A DNA stretch of 15,503 nucleotides, taken from assembly GCA_030424555.1 (NCBI GenBank), contig JAUHWK010000050.1, positions 1 through 15,503 on the forward strand, read 5' to 3'. Under the pieces are notes generated by a model, which did no database searches, was not told where the DNA came from, and saw only the letters and a list, made by a program, of their open reading frames with translations. The stretch comes from a bacterium. Lineage in GTDB: Bacteria; Myxococcota_A; UBA796; GCA-2862545. The translations under genes and the position numbers were made by a program. Positions within the stretch are counted from its first letter, which is position 1. Every line of letters starts with the position of its first letter. Below, piece after piece: positions 2 through 12,729 of the stretch.

Positions 2-832
2 CCGGAGCGGTGGATGTTCCACGGGCCAGCGTTCCAGGGCATCGTCGATCTGGGTCCCACGGGTGCGGACGGGATCGAGGGCGCCGTCGTGTCGCTGCCG
101 ACGCCGGGTGCGACGATGGACAACGTCGGCCAGGTGTTCGGGTTCTGGGGGTTCGAGCGCCTGGATCAGGATGGACTGGGCTTCCCGGCACGCATCGGTC
201 GGATGACGTTCCACGGCCCGATCCCCGAGCCGGGGGCGCGGCTGGAGGTGCGTGCGTGGATCGACGGCGTCACCCCGGCGGCGTACCGCGGCGCGATGGA
301 GGTCCAGCACCGGGGCGTGGTGTGGTGCACCATCGACGGCTGGGAGAACCGGCGGTTCGAGACCGACGACGTCGTGTTCCCCTTCCTGCGAAAGCCGGGC
401 GTCCACGGGCTCGCGGAGCCCCTGGGAGACGGCGTGTTCGGCGTGCGGGAGCGCTGGCGGACGGCCGCGAGCCGCGAGCTGTTGATCCGTCGCTACCTGG
501 ACCGCACCCACCTCGCGCGCTGGGAGCAGGTGGCGCCGTGGGACCGGCGTACCTGGGTGCTGCGCCGGGTGGCGGCGTGCGACGCGGTCCGCGCCTGGCT
601 GTGGGATGACGGCCACGGACCGCTGTTCCCGATCGAGGTCCAGGTGGACGATGCGCCGGATGGCGGCCTCGTGGTCCACACCCCCACCGGCCGGGACCTG
701 CGGGTGGTGGTGCAGGTCGGGGACGGGGTCGCGGTGGCGGCGGTCGCCGAGGGAGAGGTCCCGACGTTGGGACCGGATGCGCTGGCGTTGGCTGGCCGCG
801 ACGACGACGACGACACCCACGCGGTTGCGTGA
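2..832 (+). CDS. Partial CDS (5' end outside window): C-terminal region of a hotdog-fold dehydratase-like protein, possibly the DH region of a PKS/fatty-acid-synthase-like protein
   Basis: Frame 2 is open from the window edge (pos 2) to TGA 830-832. Segment RIGRMTFHGPIPEPGARLEVRAWI fits the hotdog pattern (RFxxPVxPGDxLxxEVE of FabZ/PKS-DH). Strong GC3 bias. Lies immediately upstream of an ACP gene. Family assignment is from motif memory only. Confidence 0.4.
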   Translation, partial: PERWMFHGPAFQGIVDLGPTGADGIEGAVVSLPTPGATMDNVGQVFGFWGFERLDQDGLGFPARIGRMTFHGPIPEPGARLEVRAWIDGVTPAAYRGAMEVQHRGVVWCTIDGWENRRFETDDVVFPFLRKPGVHGLAEPLGDGVFGVRERWRTAASRELLIRRYLDRTHLARWEQVAPWDRRTWVLRRVAACDAVRAWLWDDGHGPLFPIEVQVDDAPDGGLVVHTPTGRDLRVVVQVGDGVAVAAVAEGEVPTLGPDALALAGRDDDDDTHAVA

Positions 833-847
833 GGTCCGGAGGACGGC

Positions 848-1114
848 ATGAGCGAGAGCACCCTGCACGCGATCACCGGCATGATCGGCGAGGTCCTGGG
901 CGACGAGATGGTGGACGAGCCCATCACCATGGAGACCTCGTTCGCCGACGACCTGGAGATCGAGAGCATCGAGCTGGTTCAGCTGGCCGAGCTGGTCGAG
1001 GCACGGTGGGGCGAGAAGGTCGACTTCAACGCCTGGATCGCAGGACAGTCGATCGACGACGTGATCTCGCTCACCGTCGGGGACCTCGTCACGTTCGTCG
1101 ACTCGTGCCTCTGA
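848..1114 (+). CDS. Stand-alone acyl/peptidyl carrier protein (88 aa)
   Basis: ATG 848 is preceded by GGAGG (838-842, 5-nt spacer). An 88-aa acidic four-helix-type protein with FADDLEIESIELVQL, i.e. a candidate phosphopantetheine-attachment Ser in an ExS(I/L) context in place of the classic DSL. Stop TGA 1112-1114. Confidence 0.7.
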   Translation: MSESTLHAITGMIGEVLGDEMVDEPITMETSFADDLEIESIELVQLAELVEARWGEKVDFNAWIAGQSIDDVISLTVGDLVTFVDSCL

Positions 1115-1866
1115 TCGACGGACCGGCAGGGGCGCTGCACGTCGTGGACGTGGGGCCGGGGGGCCCTGGCACGCCGCTGGTGATGCTGCACGGCCTGCTG
1201 CTGGGCAACGTGGCGAGCTGGTACTTCACCGCGGCGCCGACGCTCGCCCGGTCTCGGCCGGTGCGTCTGTACGACCTGCGGGGCCACGGGCGCAGCGCGC
1301 GGCCCGCCAGCGGGTACGATCCAGACACGATGGCGGACGATCTCGACGCGGTCGTGGCCGATCTCCCCGGTCCGATCGACCTCGTGGGCCACAGCTACGG
1401 GGCGCGGGTGGCGCTGGCGTGGGCCGCCCGCAACCCCGGCCGGGTCCGGCGGATCGTGCTGGTGGAGATCCCCGGTCGAACCGGGGCGAACGCGGAGATC
1501 TCGGCGTTCTTCGAGGCGGGGCCCGAGGCGATGGTCGCGGCCCTCCCCGAGGGACTCCGTGCGGCGGTCGCGAATGGCCGGCGTCAGGCGCGGCGCTTGC
1601 TCACAAACCTCGCGGGGCTCGCCACCCAGACCACCCTGCTCGCGGACCTGGGCTCGGGAGGCGACGTCCCCGACGCTGTCGTCTCCGCGTGTACCCACCC
1701 AGTCCTGGTGGTGGTGGGGGCGTCGTCGGCGTGTGCCGACGATGGCCGGGCCTTGGCGTCGCGGCTCGCCGACGCGCGGGTCGAGGTTCTGCCGGGCGGG
1801 CACTACCTGCACCTCGATGCCACCGCCGCCCTCACCGAGACCATCGGAGCGTTCCTCGATGGCTGA
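1105..1866 (+). CDS. Alpha/beta-hydrolase-fold protein, thioesterase-like (paralog 1)
   Basis: HG oxyanion region LVMLHGLL. Nucleophile elbow VGHSYGARVA (G-H-S-x-G). C-terminal catalytic His in LPGGHYLHLD. About 253 aa, typical of type II thioesterase-like hydrolases. Start is uncertain: GTG 1105 overlaps the ACP stop, GTG 1144 is an alternative. The ORF-track start at 829 is an artefact that overlaps the ACP in another frame. Stop TGA 1864-1866. Confidence 0.7.
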   Translation: MPLIDGPAGALHVVDVGPGGPGTPLVMLHGLLLGNVASWYFTAAPTLARSRPVRLYDLRGHGRSARPASGYDPDTMADDLDAVVADLPGPIDLVGHSYGARVALAWAARNPGRVRRIVLVEIPGRTGANAEISAFFEAGPEAMVAALPEGLRAAVANGRRQARRLLTNLAGLATQTTLLADLGSGGDVPDAVVSACTHPVLVVVGASSACADDGRALASRLADARVEVLPGGHYLHLDATAALTETIGAFLDG

Positions 1867-2644
1867 GATCACCCCCCACGACGTCACCCTGCACGTGCAG
1901 ACCACGGGCTCGGGATCCCCGGCGGTCCTGTTCCTGCACGGCCTCGTGATGGACAACCTGTCGAGCTGGTACTTCACCGCCGGGACCCGGGTCGCGCGGG
2001 ATGGCGCCACCGCGGTGTTGATGGACCTGCGGGGGCACGGCCGGAGTGAGCGGCCGGCGACCGGCTACGGCGTGGAGGTCCTGCTGGCCGACATCGTCGG
2101 GGTGCTCGACCACCTCGGCCACGCGCAGGTCGTGGTCGCGGGCAACAGCTTCGGCGGACAGCTCGCCGCGGCCCTCGCGATCGCCCACCCCGAGCGGGTG
2201 CAGGGGGTCGTGCTGGTGGACGCCCACCTGGGCGCGGAGGGCTGGGGGGATGCGATGGCGTCGACCCTTTCCCTCACGGGCGAGGCGCGTGACACCATGA
2301 TCGCGACCCACTTCCAGGACTGGCTGGGGCGCCACAGCACGCGCAAGCGCACGCGGCTCGCCGACACGGCGCGGGCGCTGGTGGAGGGCACCACGTTGGT
2401 CGCCGACCTCCAGGCGTCGCCGGGGCTTGAGGACGACGCGATCGCCCAGTGGACCATGCCGGTCCTCGCCCTGTACGGACAGGACAGCGACCTGCGGGAC
2501 GAGCCCGACCGGCTGCGGCGGCTCGTGCCCCACGCGGACGTGCGGGTGTTCGAGGGCGCGACCCACTCGCTGATGTGGGAGCGAACGGCCGAGGTCGTGG
2601 ACGCGATCGCGGGTTTTGTGGCGGGGTTCCGATGCGAAGGGTGA
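1859..2644 (+). CDS. Alpha/beta-hydrolase-fold protein, thioesterase-like (paralog 2)
   Basis: ATG 1859 overlaps the upstream stop (ATGGCTGA). Clear paralog of the upstream gene: both have LHGL...N..SWYFTA and DLRGHGRSxRPAxGY. Nucleophile elbow here is AGNSFGGQLA (G-N-S-x-G); catalytic His in FEGATHSLMWE. The ORF-track N-terminal extension from 1559 is not supported. Stop TGA 2642-2644. Confidence 0.75.
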   Translation: MAEITPHDVTLHVQTTGSGSPAVLFLHGLVMDNLSSWYFTAGTRVARDGATAVLMDLRGHGRSERPATGYGVEVLLADIVGVLDHLGHAQVVVAGNSFGGQLAAALAIAHPERVQGVVLVDAHLGAEGWGDAMASTLSLTGEARDTMIATHFQDWLGRHSTRKRTRLADTARALVEGTTLVADLQASPGLEDDAIAQWTMPVLALYGQDSDLRDEPDRLRRLVPHADVRVFEGATHSLMWERTAEVVDAIAGFVAGFRCEG

Positions 2645-3813
2645 TGATCGTTGTGCCCCCGCTGGTGGGCCACATCCAGCCCACGGTCGCCCTCGGCCAG
2701 GCCTTGTTGGCCCGCGGACACGACGTGGTGTGGGTGGGCTACCCCACGCGGCTCGAGGGGCGGGTTCCGCCGGGAGGGCGCCTGCATGCGCTCCAGCACG
2801 GGATGGACGATGCCGCGCTCGCGGCCGTCAAGGCGCGGGGCCTGGGGCTTCGTGGGGCGGCAGCGTTCAAGTTCTTGTGGGAGGACCTGTTCTTCCCGCT
2901 GTCCCGCGCGATGCTGGACGGCGTGGCCGAGGCCGTGGCGGCCGAGCAGCCGGACGTGATCGTCCACGATCAGCAGGCGTTCGCGGGCGCCCTCGTCGCA
3001 CGCCGAGCGGGGATCCCGCTGGTGACGAATGCGGCGACGTCGGCCCAACTCTCGGATCCGTTCGACAGCCTTCCTCAGTTTCGAACATGGCTTCAGGACG
3101 GGATGGCGTCCTTGGCCGAGGCGGCAGGATTGCCGGCCGATCCGAGCCAGGTGGCGTCCGACACCGCGATCCTGGCCTGGTCGACCCGTGCGCTGGTCGG
3201 CGACGCGGCGCTTCCACCCCAGACGGTGCTGGTGGGGCCGGCGCGGGGGCCGAGGGCGGACGCCCCGCCGTTCGCGTGGGACCGACTGGACGATCGCCCC
3301 CTGGTGTTCGTCAGCCTGGGCACGGTGTCGATCGACATCGGCGCGCGCTTCTTCGAGGCGGCGGCCACGGTGTTCGCGGAGCGGCCTCACCTCCAGGGCG
3401 TGTTGGTGGCGCCGCCCGAGGCGGTGCAGGCCCCCGACAACCTGCTCGTGGCCTCCTACGTCCCCCAGCTCGACCTGCTCGCGCGGTCGACGGCGGCCGT
3501 GTGCCACGGGGGCCACAACACCGTGGTCGAAGCACTGAGCGAGGGGCTCCCGCTGGTGGTGGCGCCGGTGCGCGACGACCAGCCGGTGGTCGCGGCGCAG
3601 GTCGAGGCGGCGGGCGCAGGGGTGCGGGTTCGGTTTGGACGCATCCGGGCACAGACCCTGGGGGCGGCGCTGGATCGGGTCCTGCAGGACGGGGCGTTCC
3701 GGGCGGCGGCGGGCCGGGTGCGGGACAGCTTCGCGGCCGCGGGGGGCCCGGCGCAGGCGGCGGACGTCGTCGAGCGCGTCATGCGCGAAAGGTCGACGCC
3801 ACCTCGTCCATGA
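2632..3813 (+). CDS. GT1-family UDP-glycosyltransferase (MGT / macrolide-glycosyltransferase-like)
   Basis: N-terminal MRRVMIVVPPLVGHIQPTVALGQALLARGH is the GT-B N-domain GH(I/V)xP motif. C-terminal CHGGHNTVVEALSEGLPLVVAPVRDDQP matches the UDPGT/PSPG-type nucleotide-sugar binding signature. Start is ATG 2632 (overlaps upstream gene by 13 nt) or ATG 2644 (TGATG junction). Stop TGA 3811-3813. Confidence 0.8.
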   Translation: MRRVMIVVPPLVGHIQPTVALGQALLARGHDVVWVGYPTRLEGRVPPGGRLHALQHGMDDAALAAVKARGLGLRGAAAFKFLWEDLFFPLSRAMLDGVAEAVAAEQPDVIVHDQQAFAGALVARRAGIPLVTNAATSAQLSDPFDSLPQFRTWLQDGMASLAEAAGLPADPSQVASDTAILAWSTRALVGDAALPPQTVLVGPARGPRADAPPFAWDRLDDRPLVFVSLGTVSIDIGARFFEAAATVFAERPHLQGVLVAPPEAVQAPDNLLVASYVPQLDLLARSTAAVCHGGHNTVVEALSEGLPLVVAPVRDDQPVVAAQVEAAGAGVRVRFGRIRAQTLGAALDRVLQDGAFRAAAGRVRDSFAAAGGPAQAADVVERVMRERSTPPRP

Positions 3814-4978
3814 GGGCGTCCATCCGGCCGTCGGAGGCGAGGTTGACCGGGATGCTGGCGAGCAGGTCGAACCCGTCGGGCGTGCCGACCAGCGCCATGA
3901 ACAGCGAGGTGACGGGGGTCCCGGGGGGGATGAACACCACCTGTCGCCCGGTGAAGCCGGCGCCGTGCAGGGGGGAGGGGTCCATCCGGCCGAGGTTGGA
4001 GAGCACGCCGGTGCTTCCGTAGCGCCCGGTCTTGCCGTGCTGGCGTCCGCGGTGGCGGGCGACCGCGCGCATCAGCCACAGTGGAACGTGGCGTAGGCCG
4101 TCGGCGGGGAGCAGGCTCGCGGCGGGCTGGTGGGCGGCGATCGCCTGCACGAGGGCGTCGCCGAGGTCGTGGCTGTCCTGCCCGGGCTGGACCTCCAGCG
4201 AGATCATCCCCGTGAGGTTTCCGGTGGAGCGCACACTGGGGTGGTCGCGGCGGAGATCGGCGGGGATGTCGAACCGGATCGGGGCGTCGTCGCCGTGGTG
4301 GGCGCGGGCGTGGGCGGCGACCGCGTGGGCCACGCGGGGCAGGACGGCTTTGTGCTTTCCGGGGATCGATCGGCGCGTCCAGACCACCTCGTGGGACGTG
4401 CCAGTGGGGCGGCCGGTGGGCGCCACGTAGCGGTCTTCGGGGGGCGTCATCGGCTCCAGGCCTTCCGGGCGGGGCAGGTCGCCGTCGAAGGTGGTGTCGG
4501 CGTGGCCCACGCACGGCTCGCCGCGGAGCGCGCGGAACACGTCCTCCGCAAAGAACTGGGTTCCGCGGCCGTCCATCGTGGCGTGGGCGGTGCGGAAGGC
4601 GACCCGGGGGGTGGGGCCGTGCATCAGGACCACCTCGGTGGTGGGCCCGTGGTGGGGATCGAGGGGCCGCTGGAGCCAGGGGGCGCCGTCGCCCGATCGG
4701 CCGTCCCATGGGCTGCCGTCGACCTCGGTGACCGGGGGGACAGGACCCCGGTCGTCCCAGACGGTCCAGCCGACCCAGCCGCGACGGACGACCCGGGCGC
4801 CGGGGTTGGCGCGTGTGGCCTCGGCGACGGCCTCACGCCAGCGCGCGGCGTCGAGCGTGCCCTCGCCCTCGACGATCATCTGGTTGTTGAACGGGGCGAA
4901 CAGCTCGTGGGCGACGACCCAGGCGCGCTCGATGCCGGACATCGGACGACGGTAGGCGGGGACGAGGGTGGTGGTCAT
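3779..4978 (-). CDS. Condensation-domain-like acyltransferase (PapA5 / WS-DGAT-like), 399 aa
   Basis: ATG (rc of 4976-4978) overlaps the stop of the upstream methyltransferase (ATGA). Contains RTAHATMDGRGTQFF, a variant of the HHxxxDG catalytic motif of condensation/PapA/WS-DGAT acyltransferases in which the second (catalytic) His is retained. Length and N-terminal region are similar in layout to PapA5-type enzymes. Stop is rc of 3779-3781. Confidence 0.6.
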   Translation of the reverse strand: MTTTLVPAYRRPMSGIERAWVVAHELFAPFNNQMIVEGEGTLDAARWREAVAEATRANPGARVVRRGWVGWTVWDDRGPVPPVTEVDGSPWDGRSGDGAPWLQRPLDPHHGPTTEVVLMHGPTPRVAFRTAHATMDGRGTQFFAEDVFRALRGEPCVGHADTTFDGDLPRPEGLEPMTPPEDRYVAPTGRPTGTSHEVVWTRRSIPGKHKAVLPRVAHAVAAHARAHHGDDAPIRFDIPADLRRDHPSVRSTGNLTGMISLEVQPGQDSHDLGDALVQAIAAHQPAASLLPADGLRHVPLWLMRAVARHRGRQHGKTGRYGSTGVLSNLGRMDPSPLHGAGFTGRQVVFIPPGTPVTSLFMALVGTPDGFDLLASIPVNLASDGRMDALMDEVASTFRA

Positions 4979-5844
4979 GCGTCCTCAGGCGCCATGCGGG
5001 CGGTGAACACGCGCTGCTCGGTGCGGGTGTCGAGGTGGGGGACGGCCCACGCGTCGGGCGCGTCGGAGGGGGCGAGGGTGCGAACCTCCGAGAACCCGGC
5101 GGACCGCAGGTCGTCGAGCACATCGGCCTGCGATGTGGGATTTTCGGCCAGGCCTTCGCCCCCGGTGAACCGTCGCATCCAGGCGCCGAGCAGGCGGGCG
5201 ACCCAGCCGGGCGGCGGCTTGTCGGCGGGCGGCACGTAGTCGAACGCGACCCAGCCCCCGGCGGGCCGCAGGCGGGCGGCGATCCGGTGCAGGAGGTCGC
5301 GGCGCGCGGCGTCGTCCAGGTACATCAGCAAGCCCTCGGCGAGCACCATCGTGGGGCCGTCGGTCCCGGTGAGGTCGACGAGGTCGGCGCCGCGCAGGTC
5401 GGCGGGGAGCCGGGTGAGGGTGGGACGCGCGGACACGGCCTGTCCCTGAGGATCCCGGGCCAGCAGGGCGGCCTTGTACGAGACGACCTCCGGCAGATCG
5501 ACCTCGGTCCAGGCGACGTCGTGGGTGGCGGTGAACGCGGTGCCGCGGGGGGACAGGCCCGCCGCGAGCTCGAGGACGGTGGTGGCGCCTTGTGCCAGCG
5601 CTTCGTGGACCAAGGCGTCCAGCATCACGTGCCGCTGGACGAGCCCGTGCCGCAGGCTGGGGGCGTTGCGGACGAACCACCCGGCGATGCGCAGCACGCC
5701 CTCGACCGTGCCGAACACCCGGCGGGTGGCGACGGACGCGTAGCGATCGGCACCCGGCCGCTCGGACCAGGCCCACACCCCGGCGGTGTACAGCGCGGTC
5801 ACCGGGAGACCGCCACGGGGGACGGGGGGATCGACGGGGGCCAC
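4975..5844 (-). CDS. Class I SAM-dependent methyltransferase (TIGR00027 / leucine-carboxyl-MT-like putative O-methyltransferase)
   Basis: GTG start (rc of 5842-5844) with GGAGG 4 nt upstream. Motif I VLELAAGLSPRG (cf. VVxLGAGLDTR) and EVDLPEVVSYKAALL (cf. EVDQPxVIxFK) match the actinobacterial TIGR00027 methyltransferase family. 289 aa. Confidence 0.75.
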   Translation of the reverse strand: MAPVDPPVPRGGLPVTALYTAGVWAWSERPGADRYASVATRRVFGTVEGVLRIAGWFVRNAPSLRHGLVQRHVMLDALVHEALAQGATTVLELAAGLSPRGTAFTATHDVAWTEVDLPEVVSYKAALLARDPQGQAVSARPTLTRLPADLRGADLVDLTGTDGPTMVLAEGLLMYLDDAARRDLLHRIAARLRPAGGWVAFDYVPPADKPPPGWVARLLGAWMRRFTGGEGLAENPTSQADVLDDLRSAGFSEVRTLAPSDAPDAWAVPHLDTRTEQRVFTARMAPEDA

Positions 5845-5913
5845 GGCACCTCCGAGGCGACGGCGCGATGACGCCGGCTCGGGGTCCGGCTACCCGCCTC
5901 GCGGGAGGTGTGC
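5845..5913. promoter_or_regulatory. Divergent 69-bp intergenic region, presumably carrying back-to-back promoters for the MT-acyltransferase operon and the PFK-2/FBPase-2 gene
   Basis: This is the only non-coding gap between divergently oriented genes in the left half. It contains RBSs for both genes (GGAGG on each strand). No -10/-35 boxes can be called confidently in this GC-rich sequence. Confidence 0.3.
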
Positions 5914-7161
5914 ATGGCGTGGCGTCCGGTCGACCTCGATCCGCTGGTGTTGGTGATGGTGGGCAAGCCCGCCCGCGGCAAGACGTTCACCGCCCGGCGG
6001 CTGGCCCGCTACCTGACCTGGCTCGGCTACCGGGCCCGGGTGTTCAACGTCGGGACCTACCGGCGGCGGCACCTGGGGGCGGGTCAGCCCGCGTCGTTCT
6101 TCGACCCCGACAACGCCGAGGGGGTGGCCGCCCGGGAGACGATGGCCCGCGAGGCGGTCGATGACCTGATCACCTGGATCGGGGACGGGGGGGAGGTGGG
6201 CCTGCTCGACGCCACCAACGGCCGGCGAGACCGACGGGACTGGGTGCGGCGCGCCTGCGAGGAAGCGGGCCTGCGCGTGCTGTTCATCGAGCTGTCGGTG
6301 GAGGACGACGGGGTCATCGAGTCCAACGTGCGCGGCACGAAGATCCACGGGCTGGACTACGAGGGGTGGGTGGCCGACGACGCCGTCCGCGACTTCATGC
6401 AGCGCATCGCCGCGTACGACCGCGCCTGGCAGCCGCTGGACCCCGCGGAGGGCGACCACATCCGCCTGATCGACGGCGGGCGGCGCATTGAAGCCCAGGG
6501 CCTGCACGGACACCTGGCCGGTCGGCTCGCCACGTTCTTGCTCCACCTGCACCACGGCACCCGCTGCATCGTCCTGTCCCGACACGGGGAGAGCCGGTTC
6601 AACCTGGAGCATCGGATCGGGGGGGACGCGGAGCTGTCGGACCGGGGCGCGGCCTACGCCCGCCGCCTCCGGGACTGGGTCCATCGCCCAGGCCAGACCG
6701 ATCTGGACGGCCTCGCCGTGTGGACCAGCACGTTGCGGCGCACGATCGCCACCGCGGCGGACCTGGGGGCCCCCACCCGTCCCTGGAAGCTGCTGGACGA
6801 GATCGACGCCGGCGTGTGTGACGGCCTGACCTACGACCAGGTCCACACGCGCTTTCCCGACGAGTTCGCCGCCCGGCGCGCCGACAAGTTCAGCTACCGC
6901 TACCCACAGGGCGAGTCCTACCAGGACGTGATCGACCGCCTCGATCCGGTGGTCCTGGAGCTCGAACGCCAACAGCGCCCGCTGATGATCGTCGCCCACC
7001 AGGCGGTGCTGCGCGTGCTGTACGGCTACCTCGCGGGGGTCCACCCCCACCGGATCCCGCACCTCGAGATGCCGCTGCACACGGTGATGCGGGTCACGCC
7101 GGGGGCGTACGGCACCACCGAGACCCGAGAAGTGCTGGGGCCGGAGGCCGTCCAGACCTGA
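5914..7161 (+). CDS. Bifunctional 6-phosphofructo-2-kinase / fructose-2,6-bisphosphatase (PFK-2/FBPase-2)
   Basis: GGGAGG at 5903-5908 then ATG 5914 (GTG 5908 is an alternative). Kinase domain: LVMVGKPARGKTFTARRLARYLTWLGYRARVFNVGTYRR (cf. eukaryotic VMVGLPARGKTYIS..LTRYLNWIG...FNVGEYRR), LLDATNGRRDRR (cf. FDATNTTRERR) and LFIELSVEDDGVIESN. Phosphatase domain: IVLSRHGESRFNLEHRIGGDAELSDRG (RHGE phospho-His motif, cf. [24 protein letters not shown]) and IVAHQAVLRVLYGYL (cf. VICHQAVMRCLLAYF). Confidence 0.8.
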   Translation: MAWRPVDLDPLVLVMVGKPARGKTFTARRLARYLTWLGYRARVFNVGTYRRRHLGAGQPASFFDPDNAEGVAARETMAREAVDDLITWIGDGGEVGLLDATNGRRDRRDWVRRACEEAGLRVLFIELSVEDDGVIESNVRGTKIHGLDYEGWVADDAVRDFMQRIAAYDRAWQPLDPAEGDHIRLIDGGRRIEAQGLHGHLAGRLATFLLHLHHGTRCIVLSRHGESRFNLEHRIGGDAELSDRGAAYARRLRDWVHRPGQTDLDGLAVWTSTLRRTIATAADLGAPTRPWKLLDEIDAGVCDGLTYDQVHTRFPDEFAARRADKFSYRYPQGESYQDVIDRLDPVVLELERQQRPLMIVAHQAVLRVLYGYLAGVHPHRIPHLEMPLHTVMRVTPGAYGTTETREVLGPEAVQT

Positions 7162-7167
7162 TCGGGC

Positions 7168-10100
7168 CTACTCCTCCCGGGCGCGGTCGGCGCGCGCGGC
7201 GAGGTCGGCGATCGCGCTGGCGACCGTGCGGCGGAGGTCCTGGGTCCAGGCCTCGTGGGCGTCCTTGGGCAGGTGGGCCCGGGCGGAGGCGAGCATGTGG
7301 ACCGTGAGCATCTCGATCACGGACAGGGCCGCGGCCAGGTTGGGATCGCCGTCGGACGGGACACGGCGGAGATCGCCGCCCACGGCGCGTCGGGCCTGAT
7401 CCAGGAGCCGCGCCCGGCGGGCGTCGTGGTCGAGGGCGCCGGGGTCGCCTTGGGAGGGCCGGACGGCGTCGCGCAGGGACCGCAGCTCGGCGAGCATGTC
7501 CTGCATCGCGCCGGGGACAGCGGGGGCGGGAGCGGGCGTGGCGGTGGCGAGGTGGGTTGCGATGGCCTGCAAGGGCCCCGCGACGGCCTGGAGATCGGGC
7601 GGCGGGGCCTCGGCCAGCTGACCGTGGACGGCGCGGAGGGCGCGCGCGAGGTCGGCCAGGTGCTGGGTGGTGCCGCGGTCGGACGCCATGGTCTCGCGAA
7701 GCGCCGAGAGCTGCTCGTGGAGGCCGGCGAGGGCGTGCGGCACGGCGGGGTCTCGCAGGCCGGGGCCGAGGGTGCCGACGGCCTCCACCAGCCCGGACAG
7801 CACGCCGACCACGCGGGTGGCTGGGTCGTCGCCGTCGCCGCCCATGAGGCGCTGACGCCGGGTCTCCTGCCGGATGGCGTCCAGGCGCTCGGCACCGACC
7901 TCGTCGAGGCGTCCTCGGAGCTCCGCGAGCCGGAGGAGGTTGAACTCGGCCCCGGTGGTGAGGGTCTGCGACTCGCCACGGTAGTGGTCGTCGATCAGCC
8001 GGTCGACCTCCTCGTCGCGCAGGGCGGGCACGATGCGCTGCGCCAGCTTGGCCATGTTTCGGTAGCTGCCCTGGAGCTGGAACCGGGGCTCGGTCCGGAA
8101 CCGGTCCTCCATCGCAGCGCTGCGCACGTACTCGGCGTTGACCCGGAGCAGGACGTCGCGGCACCGGAACAGGTGCCGCAGCACGGTGAGGATCTCGGAG
8201 CGCTCGACGGCGCTGTAGTCGTGCGACAGCGCGGACGGCGGCAGCTCCTCGCCCTGCGCCATGCGCACCAGGGCATAGACGTCGGCCTGGGCCCGGTCGG
8301 CGAGCGGCTGCAGGACCGGGTTGGACGTGAGCGCGTTCTCGACGAAGGACAGGGCGAACACGTCCTCGCGCCCGTCGAGGACGTCGCCGAGGTTGTAGGT
8401 GTCGGCGCGGTTGGCGAGCATGTCGGGCACCTGGAACCGGTCGCCGGACTCCGTGTACGGGTTGCCGGCCATCACGACCGCGAACTTGCGTCCCCGCAGG
8501 TCGTAGGTGCGGGTGCGCCCGTTCCACACGCCCTCGATGCGGCGGCTGGCGTCGCACAGGGAGATGAACTTCTGGAGCAGCTCGGGGTTCGTGTGCTGGA
8601 TGTCGTCCAGGTACAGCAGGACGTTGTCGCCGAGCTCGAGCGCTAGGTTGATCTTGTCGACCTCCTGCCGGGCGGTGGCGTTGGGGGCCTCTTCGGGGTC
8701 GAGGCTGGTGACGCCGTGGCCGAGGGCCGGGCCGTTGACCTTGACGAACACGAGGCCGAGGCGGTCGGCGACGTACTCCATCAGGGTGGTCTTGCCGTAG
8801 CCGGGGGGGCTGACCAGGAGCAGCAAGCCCATCAGGTCGGTGCGCTTGGCGTCGCCGGCGGCGCCGATCTGCTTGGCGAAGTTGTCGCCGATCAGGGGCA
8901 GGTAGGCGTCCTGGATGAGCTTGTTGCGCACGAACGCGCTCATCACCTTGGGCTCGAGCTCGTCGATGCGCAGGCGGTGTCGCCAGCGCTCGAGGACGTC
9001 GTGACGGGTGGCCCGCCAGGCGCGGAAGCCCGGCACGCGCTCGGTGGCGAAGCGGGTGAGGCGGTCGAGGAAGGGGGCGAGGGACAGGTCCATCGCGCCG
9101 TCGCGGACGCGCGGGTGGCGCCCCAGCAAGCCCTGGACCGTGGTGCGGGCCTCGGTGGCCTCCACCTGGATGTCGACCTGGCGCTCGACCAGCCACCACA
9201 CCGCGGTCTCGAACGCGACGCCGGGATCGGCCGGGGCATCGGCCGTGCTGGCGATCGCCTCGCACCAGGCGTGCAGGACCTGGAGGTGCTCGACGGGACG
9301 GTCGGACAGCGCCCGGAGGCGATCGTCGAACGCGCCGCGGCCGCCATGGTCTTCGATCCAGCGGTCGAGGCGGGCGCGCAGGTCCTGGGCGGCGGACGAC
9401 ACGGCCATGCGGGCGGGCTCGGTGGCGAGGGCGTCGACCAGGGCCGCCCCGGCGGCGGGGAGGTCGGACGCCCACTGGCTGGGGCCGCCCGGGACGTCGA
9501 ACCCGATCTCCTGGAGCCACGCGCGGAGGACACCGGTGAGCTCGGTGGCGAAGGCCTCGGCGGCGCCGCCTGGACCCAGGGTGTCGCGGATCCGCACGAG
9601 CGTGCGGGCCCGGGCCTGCCACGCGCCCCACGGTGCGTCGGTGTGCAGCCCCCGAAACAGCATCGCCAGGGCGCGGGCGCGGGTGCCAAAGCGCTGCCAC
9701 CCGGCGGCCTGGCGGAGCTGGACGAGTGCCTTGAGGATCGCGGCGGCATCGACGTCGTGGACGCCGCGATCGTACCCCTCGTCCCAGGCCTCCGCGGTGT
9801 GCGAGCGCACGATGTCGAGCAGGCCGGCTTCGGTGAGAAGGGCCTGCTCCAGCGTGCTGACGTCGAGGCCGTCGCCGCGCTGGGCGGCATCGAGGACGCG
9901 CCAGGCCAGGTACTCGGCGCGGTAGACCGCCTCGGTCTCGCTGACGAGGGCCTGGTCCCAGTACGCACGGGCCGCGAGGACGTCGGGATCGTCGAGGCGC
10001 TGCCGGAACTGGGTGCCGGTGAGGGTGAGGGCGACGTGCAGGTCGTCGCCCTCGCCGTCGGGGACGAGCGCCAGCTCGAACGGCTGGGTGTTCACGGTGA

Positions 10101-12729
10101 ACTTGTGGCGCCCGAGGCTGATCAGCCGGTCGGCGTCGAACAGCTCGGCGTCGTCGCGCAGCGCGCGGAGGGCATCCTGGCGGGTGCGGCGAAGGCGTCC
10201 CCGGAGATCCTCGGCGCGCACGGTGTCGCCCAGGGAGACGAGCTCGTCGGCGAGGGCGCGCAGGCGGCCCACCATGGGGTCGGCGGCGAAGAAGCTGTTC
10301 AGGGCGTCTTCGTCGGTGTGGGTCCGGGCCCGTCGGGCGAGGCCCTCCAGGATCCGATCGGCGGCCGCGACCCGGGCGGCGACCCGCCGGTTCCGGTCGT
10401 CCAGCAGGCGCTGTCGGCGGGCGGCGAACGCGCTGTGGACGTCCTCGCGCTGGGTGGTGAGGGCTGGGAGGAACGCATCCGACGCGCCGAACCGGGCCTC
10501 GAGCTCCTCGACCTGGAGCAGGAGGCGCGACAGCTGTTCGTCGCACGCCTCGGGGGTGTCGCACCGGGCCAGGGCGGACTGGACGGCCTGGGACAGCAGC
10601 TTGATCTGCGCGGAGAACTCGGCCTCACCCTCCTTGGCCGCCAGGGCTTCTTCGCGTTGCTCGAGCGCGAGCCGGACCCGGTTGGCGGTGCTGAACACCT
10701 CGCCGATGCGATCGAGCAGGGCGGCCTTGCGGGTGGGATCGTCGACCTCGAGGCCCGCCACCACCTCGGCGAGCAGGTCCACGCCCTCGGCGGTCTGGGT
10801 GAGGCGCTCGGCCCAGGGCTCCAGCTCCAGGGTTCGTCGAACCCCTGGCAGGGCGGCCTCGACCTCGGCCAAGCCCTGGATCAACGGTGCGAAGGCGGCC
10901 TCGCCCTCCAAGAACCGGATCGTGGCCTGCCCGACCCGTTCGAACCGCGTCTCGGCCTCGTCGCCCAGCGCCTGCAAGGCGGCGCGATCGGCGAAGCGGA
11001 CGTCCTGCAGCGTGATCAGGTGCCCGCGGTGTCGGCGGAGACGGGTCATCGCGCCGAGCAGGGCGTCGATGCTGGTGAGGCGCTCGGTGCGCACCGCGTC
11101 CATCAGCGAGGCGTGCTCCTCGCGGGCCGCGCGCAGGGTGTCGGCGGCGCGGCGCTGCAGGACCAGGACCTTTTCGAACTCGTCGACGACCTGCTCGGTC
11201 GCTTGCAGGGTGGCCTCGACCGCCTCGGCGAGGCCGTGCATCGAGGCATCGGACGCCCAGTAGTGGGCGTCGAGGAAGCGCTGGCACCCGGCGGCGAGCT
11301 CGTCGAAGGCGGCTCGGGTGGGCTCGGGGTGGGTGGCGAGGCGGGCCAGGGTGAGGGCGTCGGACACCCCGCGCACCAGCTCGGCGTTGCCCACGCGGGC
11401 GATCAGGTCGTCGCCGTGGGCGGCGGGGTCGACGTGCTCCGGGTGGACGAACGGGGTGCGCCAGAGCTGGATCGGGTGGACGCGGGTGGGGTCGGGCTGG
11501 GCGCGGAACACGGCCAGCGTGCCGTCGTCGAACAGGGACCAGCCGTGGGCGTGGATGGGGGTGCGGACGTCCTTGCGGATGAGGTTGTAGCTGTACAGGG
11601 CGTACAGGCCGTCGGACGCGCGGTGGAACACGTACAGGACGTCTTCGCCGTTGGGGGCGTCGAGGCGCCGGACGAACCGCATCCCGTCGTGCTCGGCGTC
11701 GAACACCTTGTGCTGGCCGTCGCGCAGGACGTACCCGCCGGGGAACAGGATGCCGTGGTCCTCGGGCAGGGTGACGCAGCTGGCGCCGAGGGCGTCGATG
11801 CGCAGGACCTGCCGGGTGGTCCGCACGAACACGAGGTGGCGGGTGACGGCCTCGTTGAAGGGCGTGATGCGCAGCAACAGCAGGGAGCCGCGGTCGGCGT
11901 AGGCGATGGCGGCGTCGTCGAGAGACTGGTTGGGGTCGTCGACGGGCTCGGAGTACACGCCCTCCCCGGTCTCCGTGTTGTCCTCGACCTTGACCGTGAG
12001 GTCGCCGCCGACGGTCTCGACGAACACGGTGTCGAGCACGTTGACGTGGGGGTGCCGGCCGCGGACGTGGTCGTCGCGGGTGGTGGCGGTCCAGGTGAAG
12101 TCGTGGGCGGGCGGGAACACGTGGTCGCGCTCGCCGCGGTTGTCGACGTAGGTGGGGGTGTCGTCGGCGGTGAGATCCCACCGGAGGACCTTGACGTCCT
12201 CGGGCCGCTTGCCGATGCGGAACACGGCGAGCAGGCGTCCGTCGACGCGGCGCAGCTGGGTGAGCCGGGCGTCCGCGTAGTACTGGAACAGCTCGTTGAA
12301 CTCACGGTCGAACGCCGGGCCCTCGAGGAAGGACCGGGCGCTCTCGGCCGCGGGGCGGAAGGTGGGGACGTCGCCGCTGCGGTCGATGGTGTACAGGCCG
12401 AACACGTCGCCGGGCGAGGTGGTCTGCTTGAGGCCGAGGAACACCTCGTAGCCGACCAGCAGGTGGTCCCCGATCGGGACCATGTCGTGGGGGGTGTTGG
12501 CGTGCTCGGTGCGCACGCGCTCCTGGCCGAGCACCTCGAACGACACCGAGCCGAACCGATCGACCCGCTGGGCGTTGAGGGTGTCGGCGGCGGCCTTGAC
12601 CGCGGAGGCTCGGTCGGCGAGGCGGCGGCGCAGGACGCCGTAGTTGCCCTGGTCGACCGCGGCGTCGGTGCCCTCGGGGGCGGGATCGGACGGGGCGTCT
12701 TGGGTGGGGTCGTCAGCTCGGTCGGCCAT
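7168..12729 (-). CDS. Giant (1853 aa) protein with an embedded MoxR/AAA_5-type AAA+ ATPase module; function unknown
   Basis: ATG (rc of 12727-12729) with GGGAGG 8 nt upstream. Balanced amino-acid composition, unlike the G/A/V-rich antisense ORF. The AAA module is annotated separately. The N-terminal ~1250 aa and the low-complexity C-terminal ~280 aa match nothing I can recognise. Stop is rc of 7168-7170. Confidence 0.75.
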   Translation of the reverse strand: MADRADDPTQDAPSDPAPEGTDAAVDQGNYGVLRRRLADRASAVKAAADTLNAQRVDRFGSVSFEVLGQERVRTEHANTPHDMVPIGDHLLVGYEVFLGLKQTTSPGDVFGLYTIDRSGDVPTFRPAAESARSFLEGPAFDREFNELFQYYADARLTQLRRVDGRLLAVFRIGKRPEDVKVLRWDLTADDTPTYVDNRGERDHVFPPAHDFTWTATTRDDHVRGRHPHVNVLDTVFVETVGGDLTVKVEDNTETGEGVYSEPVDDPNQSLDDAAIAYADRGSLLLLRITPFNEAVTRHLVFVRTTRQVLRIDALGASCVTLPEDHGILFPGGYVLRDGQHKVFDAEHDGMRFVRRLDAPNGEDVLYVFHRASDGLYALYSYNLIRKDVRTPIHAHGWSLFDDGTLAVFRAQPDPTRVHPIQLWRTPFVHPEHVDPAAHGDDLIARVGNAELVRGVSDALTLARLATHPEPTRAAFDELAAGCQRFLDAHYWASDASMHGLAEAVEATLQATEQVVDEFEKVLVLQRRAADTLRAAREEHASLMDAVRTERLTSIDALLGAMTRLRRHRGHLITLQDVRFADRAALQALGDEAETRFERVGQATIRFLEGEAAFAPLIQGLAEVEAALPGVRRTLELEPWAERLTQTAEGVDLLAEVVAGLEVDDPTRKAALLDRIGEVFSTANRVRLALEQREEALAAKEGEAEFSAQIKLLSQAVQSALARCDTPEACDEQLSRLLLQVEELEARFGASDAFLPALTTQREDVHSAFAARRQRLLDDRNRRVAARVAAADRILEGLARRARTHTDEDALNSFFAADPMVGRLRALADELVSLGDTVRAEDLRGRLRRTRQDALRALRDDAELFDADRLISLGRHKFTVNTQPFELALVPDGEGDDLHVALTLTGTQFRQRLDDPDVLAARAYWDQALVSETEAVYRAEYLAWRVLDAAQRGDGLDVSTLEQALLTEAGLLDIVRSHTAEAWDEGYDRGVHDVDAAAILKALVQLRQAAGWQRFGTRARALAMLFRGLHTDAPWGAWQARARTLVRIRDTLGPGGAAEAFATELTGVLRAWLQEIGFDVPGGPSQWASDLPAAGAALVDALATEPARMAVSSAAQDLRARLDRWIEDHGGRGAFDDRLRALSDRPVEHLQVLHAWCEAIASTADAPADPGVAFETAVWWLVERQVDIQVEATEARTTVQGLLGRHPRVRDGAMDLSLAPFLDRLTRFATERVPGFRAWRATRHDVLERWRHRLRIDELEPKVMSAFVRNKLIQDAYLPLIGDNFAKQIGAAGDAKRTDLMGLLLLVSPPGYGKTTLMEYVADRLGLVFVKVNGPALGHGVTSLDPEEAPNATARQEVDKINLALELGDNVLLYLDDIQHTNPELLQKFISLCDASRRIEGVWNGRTRTYDLRGRKFAVVMAGNPYTESGDRFQVPDMLANRADTYNLGDVLDGREDVFALSFVENALTSNPVLQPLADRAQADVYALVRMAQGEELPPSALSHDYSAVERSEILTVLRHLFRCRDVLLRVNAEYVRSAAMEDRFRTEPRFQLQGSYRNMAKLAQRIVPALRDEEVDRLIDDHYRGESQTLTTGAEFNLLRLAELRGRLDEVGAERLDAIRQETRRQRLMGGDGDDPATRVVGVLSGLVEAVGTLGPGLRDPAVPHALAGLHEQLSALRETMASDRGTTQHLADLARALRAVHGQLAEAPPPDLQAVAGPLQAIATHLATATPAPAPAVPGAMQDMLAELRSLRDAVRPSQGDPGALDHDARRARLLDQARRAVGGDLRRVPSDGDPNLAAALSVIEMLTVHMLASARAHLPKDAHEAWTQDLRRTVASAIADLAARADRAREE
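8000..8900 (-). other. MoxR/AAA_5-like AAA+ ATPase module within the giant protein (approx. residues 1280-1570)
   Basis: Motif positions in plus-strand coordinates: Walker A ~8791-8815 (LLLLVSPPGYGKTTL), Walker B ~8596-8622 (VLLYLDDIQH), sensor-1 region ~8440-8500 (FAVVMAGNPYTESGDRFQVPDMLANRAD, cf. MoxR ATQNPxExEGTYxLPEAQLDRF), lid ~8024-8086 (QLQGSYRNMAKLAQRI, cf. MoxR SPRA...LLRAA). Boundaries are approximate. Confidence 0.6.

What the first reader, a model, noticed from the sequence alone, without database searches (positions are those of the whole stretch)
2..5844. Compact lipid-tailoring cassette (hotdog/DH-like, ACP, 2 x thioesterase-like hydrolase, GT1 glycosyltransferase, convergent MT plus PapA5-like acyltransferase): predicted acylated and methylated glycolipid
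The combination of a carrier protein, acyl-chain-processing enzymes, a condensation-type O-acyltransferase, a UDP-glycosyltransferase and an O-methyltransferase parallels the logic of mycobacterial PDIM/PGL-type and related glycolipid pathways. In those pathways a PapA5 family enzyme esterifies, GTs glycosylate and TIGR00027-like MTs methylate. The cassette likely continues upstream of the window, since the first gene is truncated and may belong to a PKS or FAS-like megasynthase. The product is not predictable from this fragment.
Basis: inference. Interest (0 to 1): 0.55.

Follow-up and report, generated by a model that had tools for sequence, protein, structure and literature searches.

The report
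Tail of PUFA-synthase-like glycolipid gene cluster
The seven genes are real and are the downstream end of a lipid/polyketide gene cluster found in hundreds of soil-type bacteria, which probably makes a sugar-decorated long-chain lipid that has not been identified; this is a sound but fairly ordinary find.

Summary
Window 2-5844 carries seven real genes. On the + strand, translationally coupled: the tail of a synthase (DH plus a truncated PPTase), an ACP, two alpha/beta hydrolases and a GT1 glycosyltransferase. On the - strand, converging on these: an LCM/TIGR00027-like methyltransferase and a 399-aa enzyme with a condensation fold.

Related loci show what lies upstream of the contig end. Gene 1 is the C-terminus of a ~1340-aa KS-AT-DH-(PPTase) subunit. 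That subunit follows a ~2290-aa ER-KS-AT-ACP-ACP-KR subunit whose best family match is PfaA.

The order DH-PPT, ACP, hydrolase, GT is intact in 72 of 80 genome loci from Actinomycetota and Myxococcota. Seven of the other eight are cut by contig ends.

The "PapA5-like" gene matches no sequence family. Its model (pLDDT 95) has the condensation/PapA5 fold and an invariant HxxxDG motif. It occurs only in the window's own clade. An LCM-type methyltransferase recurs near the cassette in 12 other loci.

The PDIM/PGL parallel is an analogy only; the real relatives are PUFA-synthase-like "secondary lipid" clusters. The product is unknown, most likely a glycosylated, methylated long-chain hydroxy-acyl lipid. 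I found no paper that characterises it.

The parts
2..832 (+). g1: C-terminal 276 aa of synthase subunit B (KS-AT-DH-PPTase type). It holds the second half of a PS-DH double-hotdog dehydratase, with the DxxxQ motif (MDNVGQ), plus the N-terminal half of a PPTase domain. The catalytic PPTase half is missing.
   Evidence: PS-DH hit. Homologues carry PF14765 plus PF01648. The alignment shows the window protein ending before the GxDxE and WxxKEA motifs; those motifs are intact in at least 47 of 84 homologues, while the window tail is only 63 aa. Relatives 70-75% identical are 1338-1343 aa KS-AT-DH proteins.
848..1114 (+). g2: discrete acyl carrier protein, 88 aa
   Evidence: PP-binding hit above cut-off and weak ACP/AcpM hits. 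The Ser in DLxxESI is at least 90% conserved across 61 homologues. It sits in the same position in 72 of 80 loci.
1105..1866 (+). g3: alpha/beta hydrolase 1 (nucleophile elbow GHSYG). Its start overlaps the end of g2.
   Evidence: Abhydrolase_1/6 hits; Thioesterase PF00975 only sub-threshold. GHSxG and a C-terminal GGH are conserved in 19 homologues. This second hydrolase copy is present in 18 of 72 loci, mostly Myxococcota.
1859..2644 (+). g4: alpha/beta hydrolase 2 (GNSFG). It overlaps the end of g3 by 8 nt.
   Evidence: Abhydrolase_1, E 6e-31. GNSxGG, an Asp and a C-terminal His are at least 90% conserved in 75 homologues. PDB neighbours are generic esterases and epoxide hydrolases, and include the CurM TE 3qit at 1e-10. 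This hydrolase type is present in every complete locus.
2644..3813 (+). g5: GT1-family (MGT/OleD/YjiC-like) nucleotide-sugar glycosyltransferase. Its ATG overlaps the g4 stop codon.
   Evidence: Pfam and NCBIfam hits. The closest solved structures are YjiC, OleD/OleI, CalG2-4 and Kcn28. The N-terminal GH, the H.GHNT..E motif and the DQP motif are conserved in 69 homologues.
3779..4978 (-). g6: stand-alone enzyme of the condensation/CAT superfamily (PapA5-like fold) with an HxxxDG motif (AHATMDG). Its 3' end overlaps the 3' end of g5 by 35 nt.
4975..5844 (-). g7: SAM-dependent methyltransferase of the LCM/TIGR00027 type. Its stop codon overlaps the g6 start (ATGA).
   Evidence: LCM, E 3.5e-16. 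TIGR00027 at 60.6 bits, below cut-off. Closest PDB entries are ML2640 and Rv0731c. Homologues lie 0.1-6 kb downstream of the GT in 12 of 80 loci from two phyla.
5908..7161 (+). g8: 6-phosphofructo-2-kinase / histidine-phosphatase bifunctional protein, divergent from g7.
   Evidence: 6PF2K, E 5e-59, and His_Phos_1, E 1e-37. It is adjacent to the MT in all four close relatives, including L084/L085 where the genes beyond it differ. It is absent from the 80 genome loci.

Best explanation
Window 2-5844 is the 3' end of a PUFA-synthase-like (PfaA-like, 'secondary lipid' or hglE-type) iterative type I FAS/PKS gene cluster.

Shown:
- g1 is the C-terminal dehydratase plus a vestigial PPTase of synthase subunit B (KS-AT-DH-PPT).
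- In relatives, subunit B follows subunit A (FabK/NMO-type ER-KS-AT-ACP-ACP-KR).
- Subunit B is invariably followed by a discrete ACP, one or two alpha/beta hydrolases and a GT1 glycosyltransferase, all translationally coupled.

Inferred:
- A and B together supply KS, AT, KR, DH and ER and iteratively build a long, largely reduced, probably hydroxylated acyl chain.
- The chain is passed to the discrete ACP.
- The alpha/beta hydrolase(s) release it by hydrolysis or by transfer to an acceptor hydroxyl.
- The GT1 attaches a hexose to a chain hydroxyl.
- In this clade the convergent operon adds tailoring. The LCM-type methyltransferase O-methylates the sugar or a carboxyl. The condensation-fold enzyme, through its HxxxDG histidine, most likely transfers an acyl group from a thioester onto a hydroxyl of the glycolipid.
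- The product is therefore a glycosylated, methylated and, in this clade, perhaps additionally acylated long-chain lipid of unknown structure.
For: Gene calls and families.

Upstream synthases in relatives:
- L004 and L065 Pfam architectures are NMO-KS-AT-PPx2-KR and KS-AT-DH(-ACPS).
- L086, L084 and L087, 59-77% identical gene by gene, are collinear from g1 to g8.
- Subunit A's best NCBIfam hit is TIGR02813 PfaA at 901 bits.
- The L086 subunit B has the KS Cys (DAACAS), AT GHSVG and DH His.
- The window g1 keeps the DH DxxxQ motif, which is invariant in the alignment.

Cassette conservation:
- 72 of 80 loci are in order on one strand, 7 are cut by contig ends and 1 is rearranged. The scan confirmed 573 relatives of the DH-PPT gene by tblastn.
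- Catalytic motifs of the ACP, hydrolases and GT are at least 90% conserved.

Methylation as a recurring tailoring step:
- An LCM-type MT lies near the GT in 12 loci.
- A different class-I MT lies directly after the GT in about 21 loci.

g6 fold and motif.
Against: - No product is known and no experiment supports any step after domain assignment.
- The cluster lacks a thioester reductase, so it cannot make heterocyst-type fatty alcohols. The acceptor hydroxyl for the GT is assumed.
- The hydrolases are generic and have no above-threshold thioesterase signature.
- g6 is absent from all 80 other loci, and its homologues elsewhere are not next to PKS genes.
- g6's closest structural neighbour, AzeD, is deposited as a dehydratase, so an acyltransferase role is not assured.
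- The upstream genes of the window's own organism are not in hand, because the contig ends at base 1.
Confidence: 0.72

Rival explanations
1. Only g1-g5 belong to the biosynthetic cluster. g6, g7 and g8 would be unrelated neighbours that happen to sit beside it in this lineage.
For: The g6 family is absent from all 80 genome loci. g6 homologues elsewhere sit in varied contexts without a PKS. g8 is found only in the window clade.
Against: g6, g7 and g8 stay collinear with g1-g5 in four relatives at only 59-77% identity, including L084/L085 where the flank beyond g8 is different. The 3' ends of g5 and g6 overlap. LCM-type MTs recur near the same cassette in 12 loci of two phyla.
Confidence: 0.2
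2. This is a PDIM/PGL-type pathway. A PapA5 enzyme esterifies PKS-made acids onto a diol or phenol core, and a GT and TIGR00027 MTs build a methylated sugar head.
Against: The synthases are PfaA-like with an NMO-type ER, not Mas/Pps-type. No acyl-AMP ligase appears in any examined locus table. g6 itself hits no PapA or Condensation model. g6 is missing from the cassette in the 80 genome loci, and the only mycobacterial-order loci among them are two MAGs, L024 and L076. TIGR00027 scores below its cut-off.
Confidence: 0.07
3. This is an enediyne- or polyene-type PKSE-like system. The DH-PPTase terminus is the PKSE hallmark, and the hydrolase acts as the releasing thioesterase for a polyene.
For: A C-terminal DH-PPTase fusion is otherwise typical of PKSE (my own knowledge). 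One search shows PF14765 plus PF01648 together in the homologues.
Against: The synthase is split in two and carries an ER. The KS scores best or near-best to PfaA. No enediyne-cassette genes appear in the locus tables. The hydrolases are alpha/beta fold, not the hotdog SgcE10 type.
Confidence: 0.05
4. g6 is a dehydratase or another non-acylating condensation-fold enzyme (AzeD- or AmbE-CmodAA-like), acting on an ACP-bound beta-hydroxy intermediate. It would not be an O-acyltransferase.
Against: Identity to AzeD is only 16%. Most neighbours are acyl- or peptidyl-transferases, including glycolipid and wax-ester acyltransferases (8jos, 6chj, 1q9j). The HxxxDG motif is shared by both activities, so it does not discriminate.
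Confidence: 0.2

Closest known systems
PUFA synthase (PfaA-E) and the pfa-like 'secondary lipid synthase' clusters catalogued by Shulse & Allen 2011 (PMC3098273)
   Same: A multi-subunit iterative type I FAS/PKS. The large subunit has KS-AT-tandem ACP-KR and scores best to TIGR02813 PfaA. There is a FabK/NMO-type ER, an associated PPTase and a second KS-containing subunit with a DH.
   Different: - Subunit B is KS-AT-PS-DH-PPTase, not KS-CLF-(FabA-type DH)2.
- The ER is fused to the N-terminus of subunit A.
- The PfaA score is below the curated cut-off, and the ER does not hit a PfaD model.
- A conserved ACP-hydrolase-GT1 cassette follows the synthases.
- The product is unknown.
- I could not establish whether this equals their 'Type M' (Frankia, Actinosynnema, Renibacterium, S. 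avermitilis), because the figure is not held.
Heterocyst glycolipid synthase (hgl island, HglE/HglB/HglT) of Nostocales
   Same: A PfaA-like synthase coupled to a glycosyltransferase makes a long-chain glycolipid. antiSMASH names comparable actinobacterial regions 'hglE-KS' (that name comes from the literature).
   Different: No thioester-reductase (HglB-type) gene appears in the examined loci, so a fatty-alcohol aglycone is unlikely. The GT here is a GT1 MGT/OleD-type enzyme. The hosts are Actinomycetota and Myxococcota.
PapA5 and related stand-alone condensation-fold acyltransferases (PapA2, WS/DGAT, BAHD, AzeD)
   Same: g6 has the two-lobed CAT/condensation fold and an invariant HxxxDG motif. 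It is a stand-alone protein of about 400 aa, like PapA5.
   Different: The window protein has no detectable sequence similarity to these. Its family has no Pfam model of its own. Its best structural neighbour is AzeD, not PapA5. It is not linked to Mas/Pps-type PKSs.
Macrolide/natural-product GT1 glycosyltransferases (OleD/OleI, YjiC, CalG, MGT subfamily TIGR01426)
   Same: The fold and motifs match, with E 1e-20 to 3e-28 to the solved members.
   Different: It scores below the MGT subfamily cut-off (166 versus 260 bits). It is embedded as a fixed member of a lipid-synthase operon, not placed as a resistance gene.

Membership tests
PUFA synthase / pfa-like secondary lipid synthase | PfaA-type subunit (KS-MAT-tandem ACP-KR) | tested here: inconclusive
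   The relatives' subunit A is NMO-KS-AT-PPx2-KR. TIGR02813 is its best hit at 901 bits but falls below the 1010 cut-off. The window's own copy lies beyond the contig end.
PUFA synthase / pfa-like secondary lipid synthase | PfaC-type subunit (KS-CLF followed by two FabA-like DH/isomerase domains) | tested here: not met
   Subunit B is KS-AT-PS-DH-(PPTase). There is one KS, with its Cys, and no CLF or FabA-type DH.
PUFA synthase / pfa-like secondary lipid synthase | PfaD-type FMN enoyl reductase | tested here: inconclusive
   An NMO (PF03060) domain is fused to subunit A. Its only NCBIfam hit is FabK at 84 bits, and no PfaD model reached E 0.001.
PUFA synthase / pfa-like secondary lipid synthase | Dedicated Sfp-type PPTase (PfaE) | tested here: inconclusive
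   In at least 47 of 84 homologues the PPTase is fused to subunit B with intact GxDxE and WxxKEA motifs. In the window it is truncated after the first half. Any PPTase acting in trans is unseen.
Heterocyst glycolipid (hgl) pathway | Thioester reductase (HglB-type ACP-TR) giving a fatty alcohol aglycone | tested here: not met
   No reductase or NAD_binding_4 gene appears in the window or in the precomputed gene tables of L002, L003, L084 and L086.
Heterocyst glycolipid (hgl) pathway | Dedicated glycosyltransferase acting on the lipid | tested here: inconclusive
   A GT1 gene is fixed in the operon in 72 of 80 loci. Its substrate was not tested and I made no comparison with HglT.
PDIM/PGL pathway (PapA5, FadD26/28, Pps/Mas) | PapA5-family acyltransferase (PF00668/PF16911, HHxxxDG) | tested here: inconclusive
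PDIM/PGL pathway (PapA5, FadD26/28, Pps/Mas) | Fatty acyl-AMP ligase plus modular Pps / iterative Mas synthases | tested here: not met
   The upstream genes in relatives are PfaA-like, and no AMP-binding gene is listed.
Enediyne PKSE | Single KS-AT-ACP-KR-DH-PPTase protein with the E3/E4/E5/E10 cassette | tested here: not met
   The domains are split over two proteins, with an extra KS-AT and an ER. The neighbours are ACP, alpha/beta hydrolases and a GT.
Condensation/CAT acyltransferase superfamily (g6) | Two CAT-like lobes with a catalytic His in HHxxxDG at the lobe interface | tested here: met
Acyl carrier protein (g2) | Four-helix PP-binding domain with the phosphopantetheine Ser in a D-S-L-like motif | tested here: met
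   PF00550 scores above cut-off. The Ser in DLEIESI is at least 90% conserved.
Alpha/beta hydrolase (g3, g4) | GxSxG nucleophile elbow plus acid and His | tested here: met
   GHSYG and GNSFG, a conserved Asp and a C-terminal His. Abhydrolase_1, E 3e-22 and 6e-31.
Type I/II thioesterase (PF00975) | Score above the Pfam gathering threshold | tested here: not met
   g3 scores 20.0 bits against a 26.4 cut-off, and g4 has no hit.
TIGR00027 / LCM methyltransferase (g7) | Family model above its cut-off | tested here: inconclusive
   Pfam LCM is met (60.1 bits versus 22.3). NCBIfam TIGR00027 is not (60.6 versus 93.55).

The most novel reading that the evidence does not exclude
The conserved cluster of a PfaA-like two-subunit synthase, a discrete ACP, alpha/beta hydrolase(s), a GT1 and usually a methyltransferase could be the so-far-unassigned pathway to macrocyclic glycolipid dilactones of the glucolipsin, fattiviracin or cycloviracin type, or to a new family of envelope glycolipids shared by Actinomycetota and Myxococcota.

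Those compounds are C19-C33 hydroxy fatty acids glucosylated at a chain hydroxyl. Their carboxyl is esterified to glucose C6', and cycloviracins carry 2-O-methyl-glucose (PMC4365757).

On this reading the GT glucosylates the ACP-bound hydroxyacyl chain. The alpha/beta hydrolase then releases it by esterification onto a sugar hydroxyl rather than by hydrolysis. The window clade adds a further acyl group through g6.
Probability: 0.1. Interest if true: 0.65.

Novelty: new member of a known kind. Interest (0 to 1): 0.35.

Why it matters
The window itself is one more fragment of a biosynthetic cluster. The follow-up shows that this fragment belongs to a cluster type that is very widespread: a scan of one genome per species across 185,579 species confirmed 573 relatives of its DH-PPT gene, in two phyla. 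Its gene order is close to invariant, and I could find no assigned product. A conserved, cross-phylum lipid-glycoside pathway in soil actinomycetes and myxobacteria is a reasonable target for lipidomics or heterologous expression.

Two side results may be useful for annotation:
- A large family of stand-alone condensation-fold enzymes that current Pfam and NCBIfam models miss.
- Repeated loss of the PPTase half-domain from the synthase subunit.

None of this overturns current understanding.

Tried and rejected
- **g6 against solved structures by sequence.** A phmmer search and a 39-sequence profile search of all PDB sequences gave nothing meaningful. Only fold comparison worked.
- **g1 against PDB sequences.** Only noise.
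- **Subunit B against PDB sequences.** Generic PKS KS-AT hits that do not separate PUFA from enediyne from modular types.
- **g6 homologues in the loci.** tblastn and hmmsearch over the 80 genome loci found none, apart from one weak hit in L009 at E 5e-6.
- **Contexts of distant g6 homologues.** The neighbours hint at lipid metabolism (patatin, desaturase, LPG synthase, thiolase, DAG kinase) but the contexts are heterogeneous and decide nothing.
- **Organism name.** The cluster-member look-up returned no names.
- **PADLOC on g8-g11.** Nothing credible.
- **Literature.** Nine searches found no paper that characterises this cluster type. Topics covered were hglE-KS, PUFA-like clusters in actinobacteria, SCO0124-0127, Frankia, domain-string searches and fattiviracin/cycloviracin. 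The S. coelicolor 'EPA' cluster is Shulse & Allen's Type L (KS-CLF-DH2-AT), so its architecture differs. Udwary et al. 2011 on Frankia could not be retrieved.
- **Rejected as primary readings.** An enediyne PKSE and a PDIM/PGL homologue; the reasons are under rival explanations.

Full report
**Observation**

The window is a complete 15,503-bp NCBI contig with 72-75% G+C, so plain ORF lists are unreliable. GC3 frame analysis and start-codon inspection give these genes in 2-5844:
- g1 2-832(+), open at the contig end
- g2 848-1114(+)
- g3 1105-1866(+)
- g4 1859-2644(+)
- g5 2644-3813(+)
- g6 3779-4978(-)
- g7 4975-5844(-)

The products of g2, g5, g6 and g7 exist with exactly these boundaries in the public protein collection. 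A 100% identical Logan contig carries the same calls. On the + strand, g2/g3, g3/g4 and g4/g5 overlap by 1-10 nt, and g2 starts 15 nt after the g1 stop. g7/g6 share ATGA. The 3' ends of g5 and g6 overlap by 35 nt. These are two compact convergent operons.

**Gene identities**

Pfam and NCBIfam give:
- g1: PS-DH
- g2: PP-binding (ACP)
- g3 and g4: Abhydrolase_1/6. Only g3 touches the Thioesterase family, below threshold.
- g5: GT1 (EryCIII-like_C, UDPGT; MGT subfamily below cut-off)
- g7: LCM, with TIGR00027 below cut-off
- g6: nothing

1. Homologues of g1 carry PF14765 plus PF01648. The alignment shows that g1 has the second DH hotdog, with an invariant DxxxQ, and the first half of an Sfp-type PPTase. 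It stops before the GxDxE and WxxKEA motifs. Those motifs are intact in at least 47 of 84 homologues, while the window and its nearest GTDB relative keep only a 56-63-residue stub.
2. "Thioesterase-like" is an inference. The enzymes are generic Ser-Asp-His alpha/beta hydrolases whose catalytic residues are conserved.
3. g6 needed structural evidence:
   - A 39-member alignment has invariant H132 and D136 and near-invariant G137, which is the HxxxDG motif. The consensus is HHAVMDGRG; the window has AHATMDGRG.
   - The AlphaFold model is very confident (pLDDT 95.3, pTM 0.93).
   - By sequence, only 6 of 39 family members weakly touch PapA_C and 6 of 39 touch Condensation. The window protein touches neither, and PDB sequence and profile searches are empty.

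**What lies upstream**

The contig ends inside g1, so I used relatives.
- Metagenomic homologues of g1 sit behind KS, AT, KR and PPTase genes.
- A scan of one genome per species confirmed 573 relatives of g1 by tblastn, and the best 80 loci were kept.
- In well-assembled loci the DH gene is the end of a 1340-1720-aa KS-AT-DH(-PPTase) protein, here called subunit B.
- Subunit B is preceded by a protein of about 2290 aa or more (subunit A) with an NMO/FabK-type ER, KS, AT, two ACPs and a KR.
- Four close relatives of the window, found through g6 homologues, are 59-77% identical gene by gene. They are collinear from subunit A through g8.
- Subunit B of L086 has the KS cysteine, AT GHSVG and DH histidine.
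- Subunit A scores best to TIGR02813 PfaA, at 901 bits against a 1010 cut-off. Its ER region hits only FabK weakly.

Its own refutation test (no KS/AT upstream, genes scattered) fails to refute.

**Conservation**

- Of the 80 genome loci, 72 have DH-PPT, ACP, hydrolase and GT1 in that order on one strand. Seven more are cut by a contig end, and one (L009) has the cassette inverted a few kb away.
- Hosts include Acidimicrobiales, Pseudonocardiales, Streptomyces, Kitasatospora, Nocardioides and Aquihabitans, and among Myxococcota the Kofleriaceae, Polyangiaceae and Haliangiales.
- Eighteen loci, mostly Myxococcota, have two tandem hydrolases like the window.
- The ACP serine, the hydrolase GxSxG and His, and the GT1 N-terminal GH, H.GHNT..E and DQP motifs are at least 90% conserved.
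- Methylation recurs. An LCM-type MT 37-45% identical to g7 lies 0.1-6 kb beyond the GT in 12 loci of both phyla. A different class-I MT directly follows the GT in about 21 loci.
- The g6 family is absent from all 80 loci. It occurs elsewhere in heterogeneous contexts that hint at lipid metabolism, sometimes as tandem paralogues. g6 is therefore an addition specific to the window's clade.

**Mechanism (inferred)**

Subunits A and B together supply KS, AT, KR, DH, ER and ACPs, which is a full reducing set. Like PUFA synthases, they probably build a long acyl chain iteratively.

The invariant discrete ACP, the hydrolase and the GT1 suggest three steps: hand-off to the ACP, release by hydrolysis or transesterification, and glycosylation of a retained hydroxyl. 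No thioester reductase is present, so heterocyst-type fatty alcohols are unlikely.

The LCM-type MT would O-methylate the sugar or a carboxyl. g6 would O-acylate through its HxxxDG histidine, or it would dehydrate if it works like its nearest structural neighbour AzeD. I could not predict chain length, the hydroxylation pattern or the sugar.

**Comparison with known systems**

- The closest known kind is the PUFA-synthase-like "secondary lipid synthase" class (Shulse & Allen 2011, PMC3098273). This includes the heterocyst glycolipid system.
- The cluster differs from canonical Pfa synthases in four ways. Subunit B is KS-AT-PS-DH-PPTase rather than KS-CLF-DH2. The ER is fused to subunit A. It has the ACP-hydrolase-GT1 cassette. 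Its family scores fall below the curated cut-offs.
- The S. coelicolor "EPA" cluster is their Type L and has a different architecture. I could not establish whether this family equals their Type M.
- The PDIM/PGL parallel is functional analogy only. There is no acyl-AMP ligase and no Mas/Pps-type synthase, and g6 resembles PapA5 in fold alone.
- An enediyne PKSE reading is rejected on architecture.
- Nine literature searches found no characterised product.

**Speculative lead**

Actinomycete macrocyclic glycolipid dilactones (glucolipsins, fattiviracins, cycloviracins) are C19-C33 hydroxy fatty acids glucosylated on the chain. Their carboxyl is esterified to glucose C6', and cycloviracins carry 2-O-methyl-glucose (PMC4365757). 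That chemistry matches a long-chain synthase, a GT, an esterifying hydrolase and an MT. I have no genomic evidence from producer strains and give this about 10%.

**Verdict**

This is a new member of a widespread but uncharacterised PfaA-like glycolipid-type cluster family, with tailoring specific to its clade: the condensation-fold enzyme, the LCM-type MT, and possibly a PFK-2/FBPase-2-like protein. Interest is moderate to low for the window itself. The cluster family as a whole is a reasonable discovery target.

Noticed in passing
window 5908-7161 (+): g8 encodes a bifunctional 6-phosphofructo-2-kinase / histidine-phosphatase (PFK-2/FBPase-2-like) protein (6PF2K E 5e-59, His_Phos_1 E 1e-37). 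It is divergent from the methyltransferase by 63 bp. It stays adjacent to the cluster in all four close relatives, even where the next genes differ (L084/L085 versus L086), and it is absent from the 80 other loci. It may be a sugar-phosphate tailoring or supply enzyme of the cluster, or just a conserved neighbour.
   Followed up: partly
window 7168-12729 (-), 12801-14789 (-), 14897-15502 (-): Three co-directional genes. The first is an 1853-aa ATPase (DUF3686 E 3e-183, DUF7902, and an AAA domain near residue 1300). The second is a 662-aa protein with an N-terminal membrane helix and a very long Glu/Ala/Lys-rich coiled coil; it looks flotillin/YqiK-like to my eye but has no Pfam hit. The third is a partial protein with a weak YqiJ_N match. 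The trio is conserved in L086 (64-81% identity). No credible PADLOC match. Function unexplained.
   Followed up: partly
window 13000-14500: A dip in G+C to 0.66 with AT skew down to -0.45. It coincides with the coiled-coil region of the 662-aa gene on the - strand. I read this as a likely effect of amino-acid composition, not a sign of foreign DNA, but did not test it.
   Followed up: partly
window 560-832 (C-terminal third of g1) and loci L002-L083: The PPTase domain fused to the synthase subunit is intact in at least 47 of 84 homologues, including the Streptomyces locus L065 (PF01648 hit). In the window, L004 and several other lineages it has lost its catalytic half. Two such lineages (L002, L003) carry a separate ACPS gene upstream. 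This looks like repeated domain decay with a PPTase supplied in trans.
   Followed up: partly
proteins P0031-P0149 (g6 family); loci L088-L090: g6 belongs to a large family of stand-alone condensation-fold proteins of about 395-420 aa with an invariant HxxxDG. The search returned 181 hits at E<=1e-3 among the 8000 candidates scored. Neither Pfam nor NCBIfam recognises most members. The family is spread over Myxococcota, Deltaproteobacteria, Spirochaetota, Smithella and others, and sometimes occurs as two or three tandem paralogues (for example PKM41_12495/12500/12505).
   Followed up: partly
locus L004 (CAYNFK010000017.1): The closest species-representative genome locus is labelled 'uncultured Enterobacteriaceae bacterium' but has 71% G+C and a Myxococcota-type two-hydrolase cluster. 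The MAG's taxonomic label or its binning is probably wrong.
   Followed up: no
loci L016, L037, L041, L048, L050, L076 (downstream of the GT): In Pseudonocardiales-type loci the cluster is followed by a polytopic membrane protein of about 512-555 aa. In a partly overlapping set of five loci (L016, L037, L048, L053, L057) there is also a secreted protein with a GDSY motif that looks like an SGNH/GDSL hydrolase. This hints that the product is handled at the cell envelope. Neither protein was annotated with family searches.
   Followed up: no
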